This document shows positions 19,232 to 21,412 of a stretch of DNA of 64,000 bases, piece by piece. The stretch's first letter is position 1. Every line of letters begins with the position of its first letter. Source of the stretch: a virus (Duplodnaviria; Caudoviricetes); IMG/VR virus record IMGVR_UViG_3300043423_000073, positions 64,001-128,000 of that record. One strand, written 5' to 3'. Made by a program: the position numbers and the translations under genes. The notes beneath the pieces are model-generated. The model had not been told where the DNA came from. It did not search any database and worked only from the letters and a program-made list of their open reading frames with translations.

Positions 19232-19270
19232 AGCACACACCCAGCCCGGAAAAGAAAACTGTAAATTAAT

Positions 19271-19385
19271 TGTGTACCTAGCAGCATGGCGACGGCCTAG
19301 CCCCTTCGCCATCCTAGAACAACACCGGGAAAACCTTTTGGTTAAAAGCTCACGCTGCTTTATGCGGAATGCTGCTAGGTACACA
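19271..19385 (+). ncRNA. Candidate ~115-nt small RNA closed by a 17-bp stem
   Basis: tgtgtacctagcagcat / atgctgctaggtacaca perfect inverted repeat starting 4 nt after an ACTGTAAAT motif; internal hairpins. Confidence 0.45.
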
Positions 19386-19423
19386 CCCCAATCCCTTCTT
19401 CATCAAAACCTGAAAGCCTTCCT

Positions 19424-19660
19424 ATGTTACACAGCAGTCTCCCACCCTTGGATGTTACCTGCAAAAAGAAGCCAGCCCGAGGCCCCGCCCTCATCGTTCG
19501 TCCCTTGCGTTACATTATCGCGCAGAACTCTTTCGTTGAGCGCGACTCCACTGGCACACCTGTGCTGCGACTCGGCGCAACGGCACGTGAGGCAAAACGG
19601 TGGGCGGCACAAGGTCGCGGTGACATGGTGCAGCGCATTGCCCGTTCCTTGCCGGCCTAA
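19424..19660 (+). CDS. Small basic hypothetical protein
   Basis: 78-aa ORF between RNA candidates. Confidence 0.45.
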   Translation: MLHSSLPPLDVTCKKKPARGPALIVRPLRYIIAQNSFVERDSTGTPVLRLGATAREAKRWAAQGRGDMVQRIARSLPA

Positions 19661-19680
19661 GGACTAGCAAACTCGACCTG

Positions 19681-20475
19681 GGCAGGAGTGCCTAGGTCTG
19701 TCATTAAAGAAGCGGCGTGGAGCCTTAACCGGCGAAGTCGAAAGACGAGGACACGCTAAGCACGATGCAGAAACATGAGACTTTCGGCGGCATAGGTCAA
19801 TGCTTGCAAACCTTCCGAAGCGTGCAGGGTAGCCCTTGCGTTCACGTTAGGAACCGCACTTTGAAAGCTGCTAAGGTGCTGATAGGAAAGAGGAGTGGGC
19901 TCTGTGGACGCACAACCCACCGCAACTACTGGCAGTGTGTAGCAAGCTGGAATCAAGCCCAGCCTTCTTTAATGACAGACCTTATCGTCGCCAACTCGTT
20001 GATCACCGATCAAGCCACTAAGTAGGCACGTCCGGCAACATGACGGACGTAGAGTGCTGCAGCGCTCTTTGGTCACCCTAGATCCTCCTGGGCTAGGTGA
20101 CGACGAGGTTTATCATGACTTTGTTGGTGGGAAAGAAACCTTCTGCTAACCGCACGCTAGGTATTGAGCGCGTAGCAGTTGCGAGACTGCTTGGCCGCCG
20201 GGAAAGACCGGCACCATCACGCATGTGGGTTTGGCAGGTGTTGTCGGTCAGGTGGAATGAAGTCGCGCTCTGGTCGGCCGGCCAACGTGTACGGCCATTA
20301 ATCCCGACAACCCTGCGCGGGTCGCAACCGCAAACAAGCCTGCAGTCGTGATGGTCACAGTGTTTCAGACGGCACTGCGTCTGCTTGGTGCTGAGCCTAT
20401 GCGGCCAGAGTTACACCAGCCCCTCGTCATAACAGGGGTCAGACGAATTTAGTCGGTATGGGCACTCCCTGACCA
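19681..20475 (+). ncRNA. Large (~800 nt) structured non-coding RNA candidate (GOLLD/ROOL size class)
   Basis: Closing helix 19685-19694/20459-20468, an 18-bp perfect helix 19695-19712/19964-19981, many nested helices and GNRA loops; no convincing ORF. Confidence 0.65.
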
Positions 20476-20535
20476 TCAACCTTCTTGCTTCTTTTGTTTC
20501 CTTTGTTTCCTCACCCATTTTCTTTGAAAGCCCCT

Positions 20536-20745
20536 ATGACCAAAATGATCCGTATTGAGAACGCTGACCTGTCGCGCCACCCTGTGCGCGTCACTGTACA
20601 GCACAAAGTTCCGAGTGGCGAGTGGGTTAATAGCACATGCCACTCCCCAGTGCAGCTTGACAGCCCGACTGCGCAGACCTCGCAGTACATTCACAGCGGA
20701 CAGCGCCTCGTTATTGAGGAGCTCTCGGCGGACGACGCCAGCTAA
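20536..20745 (+). CDS. Small hypothetical protein
   Basis: MTKMIRIENADLS...YIHSGQRLVIEE, 69 aa. Confidence 0.6.
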   Translation: MTKMIRIENADLSRHPVRVTVQHKVPSGEWVNSTCHSPVQLDSPTAQTSQYIHSGQRLVIEELSADDAS

Positions 20746-20762
20746 GTTGTCAAACAGATTGC

Positions 20763-20879
20763 TGCTTACCTTCTTTCTTTGGAAGAGGGTAAGCAAGCTT
20801 GCAAGGTGAACCAGTGCCTTGCTTAGGAACGCTCTTGGCGTGGGGGCGTGAGATTAATCCTGCCGTAAAATCGGCACCA
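20763..20879 (+). ncRNA. Candidate multi-hairpin RNA ending in ACCA
   Basis: Four consecutive stems; the last, tgccg-taaaat-cggca, is followed by CCA. Confidence 0.35.
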
Positions 20880-20890
20880 CACCTTTTATA

Positions 20891-21330
20891 TGGTAGTAGA
20901 CTGCTGTAATAGGCAGGCAGATACAAAAGTGAATGACTGCTGGACGCGGGTTCGAATCCCGCCAGGTCCACCATAAGAGCACTAGGCTCTAGTTGTAGCA
21001 ACAGAGTCGCGCAAGTAGCCATACGAAAAAAGGCGCCAAGTACCCAGTCAGGTACAGCGTTATGGCGTAGTGTTCTTCTGACGGGCCTGTACTGGTTTCG
21101 ACAGCGGTAGATAATGGATGTTGACTACTCAGGCAAGCGGAGCCTGCGGAGCAATCCGGAAACCAAGCACGAAAAAGAACTGCCAACGATGCGCAATTCC
21201 TGCAGGCCGCTAACGCCTGATAAAAGTTAGGGGAGCTCCCTGTCCGACGCGCTGATAATGAAGCAAAGCGGATTGGCCCCTAGGCCCGACCGAGTACTCG
21301 TTACTCCTTGATTTCAAAAGAGTCGGGCCA
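20891..21330 (+). ncRNA. ssrA: Circularly permuted (two-piece) tmRNA
   Basis: The T-arm and CAGGTCC-A-CCA end (20973) lie upstream of the 5' end GGGCCTG...TTCGAC (21083); acceptor stem has G3:U70; tag frame 21182-21223 reads ANDAQFLQAANA then two stops. Outer boundaries are approximate. Confidence 0.9.
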
Positions 21331-21366
21331 CCCCTCCCTAATTCTGCCGCAACCCCACCAACAAAA

Positions 21367-21412
21367 GGAAACCCACGTCGTTCTAGTTAGCGCCGTGGGT
21401 TTCTCCGTTTTC
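21367..21412 (+). terminator. Putative terminator hairpin after the RNA cluster
   Basis: gaaacccacg / cgtgggtttc stem followed by a pyrimidine/T run. Confidence 0.45.

What the first reader, a model, noticed from the sequence alone, without database searches (positions are those of the whole stretch)
19258..21412. Apparent single ncRNA operon: four RNA elements interleaved with two small proteins
Seen, in order: ACTGTAAAT motif, 115-nt stem RNA, 78-aa ORF, ~800-nt RNA, 69-aa ORF, hairpin element ending ACCA (20879), permuted tmRNA, terminator-like hairpin. Three elements finish at ACCA (20475, 20879, 20973). Inference: one precursor is cut by tRNA-processing enzymes, and the small proteins may partner the RNAs in a ribonucleoprotein system tied to translation rescue. 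This is my best candidate for an undescribed system in the window.
Basis: inference. Interest (0 to 1): 0.75.

Follow-up and report, generated by a model that had tools for sequence, protein, structure and literature searches.

The report
Phage RNA-gene island with tmRNA
A giant phage carries, behind one promoter-like motif, a string of separate RNA genes: a ribosome-rescue tmRNA with an odd tag, a member of a previously uncatalogued and abundantly expressed phage RNA family, and a small conserved structured RNA. Two unrelated small protein genes sit between them, so this looks like an assembly of independent modules rather than one RNA-protein machine.

Summary
All listed elements are present. 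The window is part of a 154.7-kb jumbo-phage contig.

**Well supported**
- A complete two-piece (permuted) tmRNA. It has a G3:U70 pair, a T-arm and a CCA end. Its tag is ANDAQFLQAANA, whereas host-type tags end in [I/L]AA.
- A 115-nt RNA (19271-19385): 6 compensatory pairs and none broken against one diverged relative.
- "Domain A" (19694-19982). It belongs to an RNA family absent from Rfam, which I found in 13 further phage or metagenome loci. The family shows 13 covarying pairs. One metatranscriptome holds an exact contig at high depth, and a second run of uncertain type holds another.
- ACTGTAAAT is a recurrent, co-oriented, promoter-like motif, and a terminator-like hairpin closes the unit.

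**Not supported**
- ACCA is not enriched, and only the tmRNA has tRNA-like features.
- The ORF69 family (19 loci), the ORF78 family and the domain A family occur elsewhere without each other or a tmRNA.

**Best reading**
One probable transcription unit of independently mobile modules. The long perfect helices are likely RNase III sites.

**Status**
Phage two-piece tmRNAs are already published. The novelty lies in the RNA families and the tag. An earlier scan note (e1-3436115) on other DNA describes an uncatalogued phage RNA that shares words with the domain A core.

The parts
19253..19269 (+). Promoter-like phage motif AGAAAACTGTAAATTAA (core ACTGTAAAT at 19258-19266)
   Evidence: 14 exact core copies in the window, all co-oriented with genes. 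The 17-nt block is invariant in relative L050 while its flanks diverge. Promoter function is inferred.
19271..19385 (+). 115-nt structured RNA: a long closing helix around a three-hairpin core
   Evidence: Folding z-score -6.9. Against L050 there are 36 pairs: 6 compensatory, 4 changed on one side, 0 broken, with slid controls giving 0-1. The core is nearly invariant. No Rfam match. No other copy in the sequence held or in 151 Burkholderiales genomes.
19424..19660 (+). ORF78, a small basic protein of unknown function
   Evidence: Coding-like codon score of 0.16. Remote homologues of 38-55% identity occur in diverse phage contexts. No Pfam or PHROG family. The structure model is poor.
19694..19982 (+).
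   Evidence: Against L050 there are 76 pairs: 8 compensatory, 0 broken. The family of 12 distinct sequences has 40 pairs, 13 of them with changes on both sides, against 1-3 in slid controls. Model R2 scores 170.6 bits. Exact contigs cover 19739-19935 in an RNA library at depth 150 and 19708-19942 in a second run. No Rfam match.
19983..20476 (+). Further non-coding, structured sequence (predicted domains B 19990-20195, C 20213-20355, D 20378-20445)
   Evidence: No coding signal. Folding z-scores of -3.0 and -3.9. The domains come from the minimum-energy fold. An exact RNA-library contig covers 19987-20172. No comparative data and no Rfam match.
20536..20745 (+). ORF69, a small all-beta phage protein of a widespread family
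   Evidence: 13 homologues of 46-96% identity and 12 more in bacterial genomes. Model pLDDT is 88.5, with six strands. No significant PDB match. Atlas clusters are viral hypothetical proteins.
20761..20798 (+). 17-bp hairpin just behind ORF69, with no U-tract
   Evidence: A role as a processing or stabilising hairpin is inferred.
20912..20973 (+). tmRNA acceptor piece (T-arm, 3' acceptor strand CAGGUCC, ACCA end)
   Evidence: Rfam alignment. Read directly from the sequence.
20974..21082 (+). Intervening segment of the permuted tmRNA gene, expected to be removed
   Evidence: Rfam alignment insert. Folding z-score -2.1. Removal is inferred from knowledge of two-piece tmRNAs (PMC9004378).
21083..21345 (+). 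tmRNA coding piece: 5' acceptor strand GGGCCUG, tag frame 21182-21223 (ANDAQFLQAANA, then two stops), downstream helices
   Evidence: An exact RNA-library contig covers 21092-21290. The 3' end is not mapped.
21367..21412 (+). Terminator-like hairpin with a U-rich tail
   Evidence: z -3.4. The simple terminator scan did not list it, because its loop is too long for the scan's rule.

Best explanation
The region is an RNA-gene island of a jumbo phage. It is probably transcribed as one unit, from a phage-specific promoter-like motif (19253-19269) to a terminator-like hairpin (21367-21412).

The unit strings together modules that are evolutionarily independent:
- a lineage-specific 115-nt structured RNA;
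- ORF78;
- a roughly 290-nt member of an uncatalogued phage RNA family (domain A);
- about 490 nt of further structured non-coding sequence;
- ORF69;
- a complete two-piece tmRNA gene.

The long perfect helices that close the 115-nt RNA (17-22 bp) and domain A (19 bp) most likely act as double-strand processing sites. Host RNase III would cut there, as it does at the stems flanking ribosomal RNAs, and release the stable inner RNAs.

The tmRNA would be matured in the usual way, with RNase P cutting before G21083 and trimming back to the CCA at 20973. It would work with host SmpB, alanyl-tRNA synthetase and EF-Tu to free stalled ribosomes during infection. Its tag keeps the host-like start (AND..F) but ends in ANA rather than [I/L]AA. 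It may therefore rescue ribosomes while marking the products poorly for ClpXP degradation.

**Shown:** the existence, structure and conservation of the RNAs, the independence of the modules, and the presence of the RNA parts in an RNA library.

**Inferred:** the single transcript, RNase III cutting, the behaviour of the tag, and the functions of the new RNAs.
For: **tmRNA**
- RF04321 scores 83.4 bits against a gathering score of 47, and ARAGORN finds the tag.
- GGGCCUG pairs with CAGGUCC, giving G3:U70 followed by ACCA.
- Three host-type two-piece tmRNAs of Burkholderiales carry the tags ANDEHFAIAA, ANDERFALAA and ANDENFALAA.
- No SmpB, RNase III or CCA-adding enzyme was found in the 154.7-kb contig.

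**Promoter-like motif**
- 14 exact co-oriented copies, and invariant in L050.
- No other copy and no sigma-70-like site inside the unit.

**115-nt RNA**
- 6 compensatory pairs, 0 broken, with several G:U replacements that only make sense in RNA.

**Domain A**
- 8 compensatory pairs against L050.
- 13 further loci share the core. The family has 13 covarying pairs, and 0 of 500 shuffles reach the observed values.
- A paired deletion of an A-U pair is seen in a relative in run X6.
- Similarity to L050 ends at the closing helix on both sides.

**RNA evidence**
- Exact contigs in RNA library X3 cover 19739-19935 (depth 150), 19987-20172, 20770-20937 and 21092-21290.
- A second run, X4, holds 19708-19942.

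**Independence of the modules:**
Against: - No transcript ends are mapped. Contigs cannot show starts, ends or strand, and X4 may be a DNA library.
- A single promoter is inferred from a motif whose function is untested.
- RNase III cutting is an inference from helix length alone.
- Domains B-D have no comparative support, so the limits and number of RNAs downstream of 19982 are open.
- The poor-degron reading of the tag rests on E. coli ClpX rules recalled from the literature, not on a test.
- The tmRNA falls below the gathering score of the beta-type model (68.9 against 84), so its origin is unclear.
Confidence: 0.6

Rival explanations
1. The whole 19694-20476 stretch is one large ornate RNA of about 800 nt, of the GOLLD/ROOL kind. 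Domain A would be its conserved core, and the rest would be variable or optional side domains.
For: - The stretch is continuous and ORF-free, and it folds better than shuffles throughout.
- The minimum-energy fold encloses everything in one outer helix, 19662-20454.
- GOLLD and ROOL lie near tRNA islands in phages (PMC12286853).
- An earlier scan note (e1-3436115) describes a 0.7-kb phage RNA with optional side domains closed by 18- and 16-bp helices, and it shares words with the domain A core.
Against: - In L050, similarity stops right after the 3' arm of the closing helix.
- In 13 other loci only a core of 185-250 nt is shared, closed by its own covarying helix. In L062 an ORF starts about 20 nt behind it.
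- The RNA-library contigs for 19739-19935 and 19987-20172 are separate.
- No GOLLD or ROOL match at E up to 10.
Confidence: 0.2
2. One reading: one precursor is cut at ACCA sites by tRNA-processing enzymes, and ORF78 and ORF69 bind the RNAs to form a ribonucleoprotein system for translation rescue.
For: - The elements are adjacent, share a strand, and lie between one promoter-like motif and one terminator-like hairpin.
- The order promoter, 115-nt RNA, ORF78, domain A is kept in L050.
- ORF78 is basic.
- A weak Atlas lead (0.79, at chance level) links ORF69 to the RNA-binding TRAP protein.
Against: - ACCA is not enriched, and there are no tRNA-like features outside the tmRNA.
- ORF69, ORF78 and domain A each occur widely without the others or a tmRNA.
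- The ORF69 fold matches no known RNA-binding fold.
Confidence: 0.07
3. The long inverted repeats are DNA-level features, such as miniature transposable elements with terminal inverted repeats or a replication or packaging site, and not RNA genes.
For: Perfect 17- and 19-bp inverted repeats flank short cores.
Against: - Each element is single-copy in the 154.7-kb contig.
- The helices are maintained through G:U pairs and compensatory changes.
- Exact contigs are present in an RNA library.
- The inner core, not the repeat, is the most conserved part.
Confidence: 0.03

Closest known systems
Phage-encoded two-piece (permuted) tmRNA genes, e.g. OM43 phage Melnitz (PMC9004378)
   Same: - A permuted ssrA gene inside a virulent aquatic phage, placed behind a phage promoter.
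- It is presumed to keep ribosomes available during infection.
- That paper counted 53 two-piece forms among 133 unique phage tmRNAs.
   Different: - This gene resembles the beta-proteobacterial type rather than the alpha type.
- It has no glutamine riboswitch.
- Its intervening segment is long, at 109 nt.
- Its 12-residue tag ends in ANA rather than the [I/L]AA seen in host-type beta two-piece tmRNAs.
GOLLD and ROOL RNAs (PMC12286853)
   Same: - Large or ornate structured RNAs of unknown function, encoded by phages and often next to tRNA-type genes.
- They are highly abundant when expressed.
   Different: - No sequence or structure match to either model.
- The conserved unit here is about 190-290 nt, not 580-800 nt.
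- Multimer or cage formation is untested.
Phage T4 tRNA region with the stable RNAs RNAC and RNAD (PMC9697503; their position beside the tRNA genes and co-processing is from my own knowledge)
   Same: Small stable phage RNAs of still unknown function sit beside translation-related RNA genes and are released from longer transcripts.
   Different: - No sequence relation was tested.
- Here the partner is a tmRNA rather than tRNAs, and protein genes are interleaved.
RNase III processing stems flanking ribosomal RNAs and T7 early RNAs (own knowledge of established work)
   Same: Long, near-perfect helices formed by sequences that flank a stable RNA within a polycistronic transcript.
   Different: Cleavage here is only inferred, and no phage RNase III gene was found.

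Membership tests
Two-piece (permuted) tmRNA | Match to the covariance model above its curated score | tested here: met
   RF04321 scores 83.4 bits against a gathering score of 47, over the full model 1-213.
Two-piece (permuted) tmRNA | Acceptor stem formed by the two pieces, with a G3:U70 pair and a 3' ACCA; T-arm | tested here: met
   GGGCCUG (21083-21089) pairs with CAGGUCC (20964-20970), followed by ACCA. The T-arm is GCGGGUUCGAAUCCCGC.
Two-piece (permuted) tmRNA | Tag reading frame with an alanine resume codon, ended by stop codons | tested here: met
   ANDAQFLQAANA followed by TGA TAA, at 21182-21223.
Two-piece (permuted) tmRNA | Tag ending in the hydrophobic [I/L/V]AA-type degron | tested here: not met
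   The phage tag ends in ANA. Three host-type beta two-piece tags end in IAA or LAA.
Two-piece (permuted) tmRNA | Precursor processed into two RNAs; alanine charging; SmpB binding | not testable with these tools
   RNA-library contigs lie on each piece (20770-20937, 21092-21290), but contigs show no ends.
Betaproteobacterial two-piece tmRNA (Rfam RF01850) | Score at or above the family's gathering score | tested here: not met
   68.9 bits against 84. Bona fide members in Burkholderiales score 169-296 bits.
GOLLD / ROOL RNAs | Match to the Rfam covariance models | tested here: not met
   No match at E up to 10, either in the 3-kb search or in the searches of single domains.
GOLLD / ROOL RNAs | Homo-oligomeric cage formation | not testable with these tools
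   This needs cryo-EM or native gels.
Uncatalogued phage RNA family defined here (model R2) | Conserved core with eight helices supported by covariation, plus a closing helix | tested here: met
   - The window scores 170.6 bits on R2. It helped to build the model, so this is partly circular.
- The independent support is the 87-88% identity over 95 nt to 12 loci, and 82% over 216 nt to L070.
- 13 pairs covary.
- The closing helix has a different but complementary sequence in the window, L070 and the L061/L062 types.
Miniature inverted-repeat transposable element | Several copies per genome, with terminal inverted repeats | tested here: not met
   Single copies only.

The most novel reading that the evidence does not exclude
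Domain A represents a new class of abundant phage-encoded structured RNA, comparable in standing to GOLLD and ROOL, that acts on the host translation apparatus. This jumbo phage has gathered it, a second new RNA and a tmRNA into one 'translation take-over' RNA operon. The tag of that tmRNA (ending ANA) has evolved to free ribosomes without sending the tagged products to ClpXP.
Probability: 0.2. Interest if true: 0.8.

Novelty: new variant of a known kind. Interest (0 to 1): 0.55.

Why it matters
Phages are known to carry tRNAs, tmRNAs and a few enigmatic large RNAs, but what the non-tRNA RNAs do is a long-standing open question.

This locus offers three things:
- **A new, well-conserved RNA family.** It is found in 14 phage contexts here, is absent from Rfam, and already has evidence of high abundance in an environmental RNA library.
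- **A second small conserved RNA** with clean covariation.
- **A natural tmRNA variant** whose tag departs from the canonical degron. This makes the question 'do phages want rescue without degradation?' directly testable with simple reporter assays.

The locus also shows that apparent 'RNA operons' in phages can be mosaics of independently mobile RNA and protein cassettes.

Tried and rejected
**Searches that found nothing useful**
- Nucleotide search of the phage collection with the whole region gave only a 47-nt chance match.
- Protein-pattern scans of viral contigs with ORF78 and the 217-aa neighbour found nothing.
- The 18-mer of the closing helix gave two chance hits.
- Two words from the variable part of domain A and one from the 115-nt core gave no viral-contig hit.
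- Model R1 (115-nt RNA) found nothing in 151 Burkholderiales genomes, with no positive control.
- Model R2 gave one marginal hit in 151 genomes (E 7.5e-4, 24 bits), which I do not count.

**Relatives that did not help**
- Distant cultured relatives (BcepSauron, Motura, phiRSL1) show no comparable gap behind the shared 217-aa gene.
- Exact-protein look-ups returned the same phage (L007 is identical), and contigs L015 and L016 were too short to reach the RNAs.
- The 96%-identical ORF69 record had no DNA available.

**Read laying**
- Runs X3-X6 gave no cover over ORF78, ORF69, 20218-20739 or the flanking genes. The tool warns that holes in contig cover prove nothing, so I do not use this as evidence that the mRNA parts are rarer or that DNA contamination is excluded.
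- Contig depths (150 against 12-17) are not a measure of relative RNA levels.
- Adapter-terminated ends at 20973 belong to contigs of other organisms' tmRNAs.

**Other negative or weak results**
- The DNA search for a near host tmRNA matched only the T-arm.
- The single-sequence ORF78 model was too poor to search with.
- The ORF69 fold search gave nothing below E 0.1.
- The Atlas lead from ORF69 to TRAP (0.79) is at chance level.
- The motif CTAATTTTAT, noted by another reader as a late promoter, is not enriched in this window.
- A resemblance of GGAAAGACCGG (20203-20213) to the RNase P P4 sequence was considered and dropped, because no RNase P model matched.

Genome G031 was flagged as unpublished. 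No claim here rests on it.
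Full report
**Setting.** The window is bases 64001-128000 of a 154.7-kb linear IMG/VR virus record, estimated 65% complete. It is therefore a jumbo phage. A 217-aa protein just upstream of the finding has 26-34% identical homologues in Burkholderia phages BcepSauron and BcepSaruman, Achromobacter phage Motura, Ralstonia phage phiRSL1 and others. Those phages show no comparable non-coding stretch behind that gene. The same phage, base for base, is present in a JGI sample and in two Logan assemblies.

**Observation.**
- ACTGTAAAT at 19258 is one of 14 exact copies in the window. 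All are on the coding strand of the neighbouring genes, mostly 20-120 nt before a start codon, within an A-rich context.
- The 115-nt element (19271-19385) has 17-bp perfect arms and folds far better than shuffles, with z -6.9.
- ORF78 and ORF69 score like real genes of this phage in a codon-usage test. No frame between 19661 and 20535 does.
- The stretch 19661-20480 folds with z -5.1, and its three parts with z -2.5, -3.0 and -3.9.
- The tmRNA is found by ARAGORN and by Rfam's permuted-tmRNA model.
- A strong hairpin with a U-rich tail lies at 21367-21412.

Two details do not hold up. First, the 'element ending ACCA at 20879' is a 17-bp hairpin (20761-20798) followed by sequence that folds no better than chance. 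Second, ACCA occurs 9 times in the region, which is the window's background rate. The only T-loop motif belongs to the tmRNA.

**The tmRNA.**
- The acceptor piece (20912-20973) ends in CAGGUCC-ACCA. The coding piece starts with GGGCCUG (21083). Together they form a seven-pair acceptor stem with the G3:U70 pair that alanyl-tRNA synthetase needs. The role of that pair is established knowledge; the pairing itself is read.
- A 109-nt intervening segment lies between the pieces.
- The tag is ANDAQFLQAANA followed by two stops.
- Three genuine two-piece tmRNAs found among 151 Burkholderiales genomes encode ANDEHFAIAA, ANDERFALAA and ANDENFALAA. The phage tag therefore starts like the host type but is two residues longer and ends in ANA.
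- The phage gene stays below the gathering score of the beta-type model (68.9 against 84). No bacterial tmRNA searched resembles it beyond the T-arm.
- No SmpB, RNase III or CCA-adding enzyme gene was detected in the contig, so host factors would be used.
- Phage-borne two-piece tmRNAs are already described: 53 of 133 unique phage tmRNA forms were two-piece, most of them aquatic (PMC9004378). The gene as such is not new, but its tag is unusual.

**The small proteins.**
- ORF69 belongs to a conserved family. It has 13 metagenomic homologues of 46-96% identity, with MTKxIRIENAD and SG(R/Q)RLVIEE motifs. Twelve more lie in bacterial genomes, mostly Betaproteobacteria such as Methyloversatilis, Paucibacter and Thiobacillus.
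- The ORF69 family's contexts differ: lysis genes, terminase genes or NinB-type early regions. None of the 19 loci has a tmRNA (one, L028, has a tRNA-Asp about 4 kb away), and none shows similarity to the RNA elements.
- The ORF69 model is a confident six-stranded beta protein with no significant match among solved structures.
- ORF78 looked like an orphan in the word-indexed search. An exhaustive HMMER search then found four small homologues. Three are in unrelated phage contexts without RNA genes.
- The fourth ORF78 homologue, L050, is the key relative.

**The relative L050.** This 1010-nt contig comes from the same run as a contig carrying a 90% identical copy of the 217-aa neighbour. It aligns to window 19143-19980 at 69% identity. 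Its ORF78 is only 50-55% identical at the protein level. The non-coding elements are much better kept.
- The block AGAAAACTGTAAATTAA is invariant.
- The core of the 115-nt RNA is almost unchanged. Its helices carry 6 compensatory and 4 one-sided changes and no broken pair, and several A-U or C-G pairs are replaced by G:U. Slid-partner controls give 0-1 compensatory pairs.
- Domain A (19694-19982) shows 76 pairs, 8 compensatory and none broken, against 0-2 in slid controls. This includes an A-U to G-C change inside the 19-bp closing helix.
- Similarity collapses immediately outside that helix on both sides.
- Both structures were predicted from the same two sequences, so 100% pairing is partly built in. 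The compensatory counts are the informative part.

**A wider family.**
- Words invariant between the window and L050 were used for exact scans. They returned 9 viral contigs and 4 metagenome contigs. All share 95 nt at 87-88% identity with 19868-19962, and L070 shares 216 nt.
- Aligned, these loci define a core of 185-250 nt with long invariant single-stranded stretches, a variable central hairpin or three-way junction, and a closing helix. The closing helix has different sequences in the window, in L070 and in the L061/L062 types, but is always complementary.
- On a model-based alignment of 12 distinct sequences, 96.5% of cells pair and 13 of 40 pairs change on both sides. Slid controls give 1-3, and no shuffle out of 500 reaches the observed values. 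The alignment is fitted to the model, which favours it.
- A relative seen only in run X6 has deleted both partners of one A-U pair and changed three G:U or G-C pairs compatibly.
- Contexts differ: ahead of a small ORF, the large terminase and the portal gene; behind a ribonucleotide reductase gene; or beside VWA/DUF2201 genes 260 nt upstream of a tRNA-Arg.
- None of these loci has a tmRNA or an ORF78 or ORF69 homologue.
- The family has one copy in this phage. It was not convincingly found in 151 Burkholderiales genomes.
- No Rfam family matches any of the new elements, even in permissive single-domain searches.
It shares a few words with this core. Whether it is the same family was not tested.

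**RNA evidence.** One environmental RNA-seq library (X3, sediment) holds contigs identical to 19739-19935 (depth 150), 19987-20172, 20770-20937 and 21092-21290. A second run (X4, freshwater, labelled metatranscriptomic but possibly DNA) holds 19708-19942. The contig 20770-20937 bridges the supposed ACCA end at 20879, which speaks against a clean cut there. Contigs give no ends, strand or levels, and uncovered parts mean nothing.

**Interpretation.** The simplest account is a mosaic RNA-gene island. One probable transcription unit collects cassettes that each have their own evolutionary history.
- The long perfect helices around the two best-supported RNAs resemble RNase III processing stems, which is an inference.
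- The tmRNA would follow the known two-piece maturation path.
- The functions of the 115-nt RNA and of the domain A family are unknown. The strict conservation of unpaired stretches suggests contacts with a conserved partner. The neighbourhood of tmRNA or tRNA genes in two contexts makes the translation apparatus a reasonable but unproven guess.
- Whether 19983-20476 holds further separate RNAs or belongs to domain A remains open.

Noticed in passing
window 2949-59169 (14 exact sites, e.g. 4744, 10594, 12049, 15760, 29175, 30870, 54469, 56322): ACTGTAAAT, usually preceded by AAA and followed by A or T, recurs on the coding strand ahead of genes on both arms of the window. It is likely a promoter class of this phage. 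The copy at 56322 shares a 26-nt context with the one at 19258.
   Followed up: partly
L061-L073 (e.g. L062:6504-6687, L071:4206-4402, L070:946-1193 minus strand): An uncatalogued structured RNA family of about 185-250 nt occurs in diverse uncultivated phages. Its contexts include terminase, portal, ribonucleotide reductase and tRNA-Arg genes. In L062 and L064 about 1 kb or more of ORF-poor sequence lies upstream of the core and was not examined.
   Followed up: partly
L016:1476-1550: In a relative with 71% identity in the 217-aa protein, a tRNA-Met gene directly follows that gene. In the window, the 160-aa gene and the RNA island lie at that position, and the window's own tRNA-Met is at 49298-49374.
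   Followed up: no
L010:3505-3628 and L012:2272-2395: Phage contigs carrying ORF69 homologues also carry the Betaproteobacteria-1 RNA (RF02932, 90.5 bits), about 1.7 kb upstream of the ORF69 homologue.
   Followed up: no
L053:734-1105: A JGI contig has a 372-nt gap between a 217-aa ORF and an ORF78 homologue of 38% identity. Whether that ORF is a homologue of the window's 217-aa protein was not tested. The gap has no similarity to the window's RNAs and no hit with models R1 or R2. It may hold a different RNA.
   Followed up: partly
window 19408-19423 and 20520-20535: Both small ORFs lack a Shine-Dalgarno match but share TGAAAGCC 3-5 nt before the ATG, after a pyrimidine-rich leader. About 60% of the long ORFs of the phage have a GGAG- or AGGA-type site.
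   Followed up: no
window 61277-64000 and genome 26851-27810 (outside the window): Other readers' notes mention a split RecA with intein pieces and a second candidate structured RNA of about 460 nt elsewhere in this genome. My coding-potential scan also flags genome 26851-27810 as non-coding.
   Followed up: no
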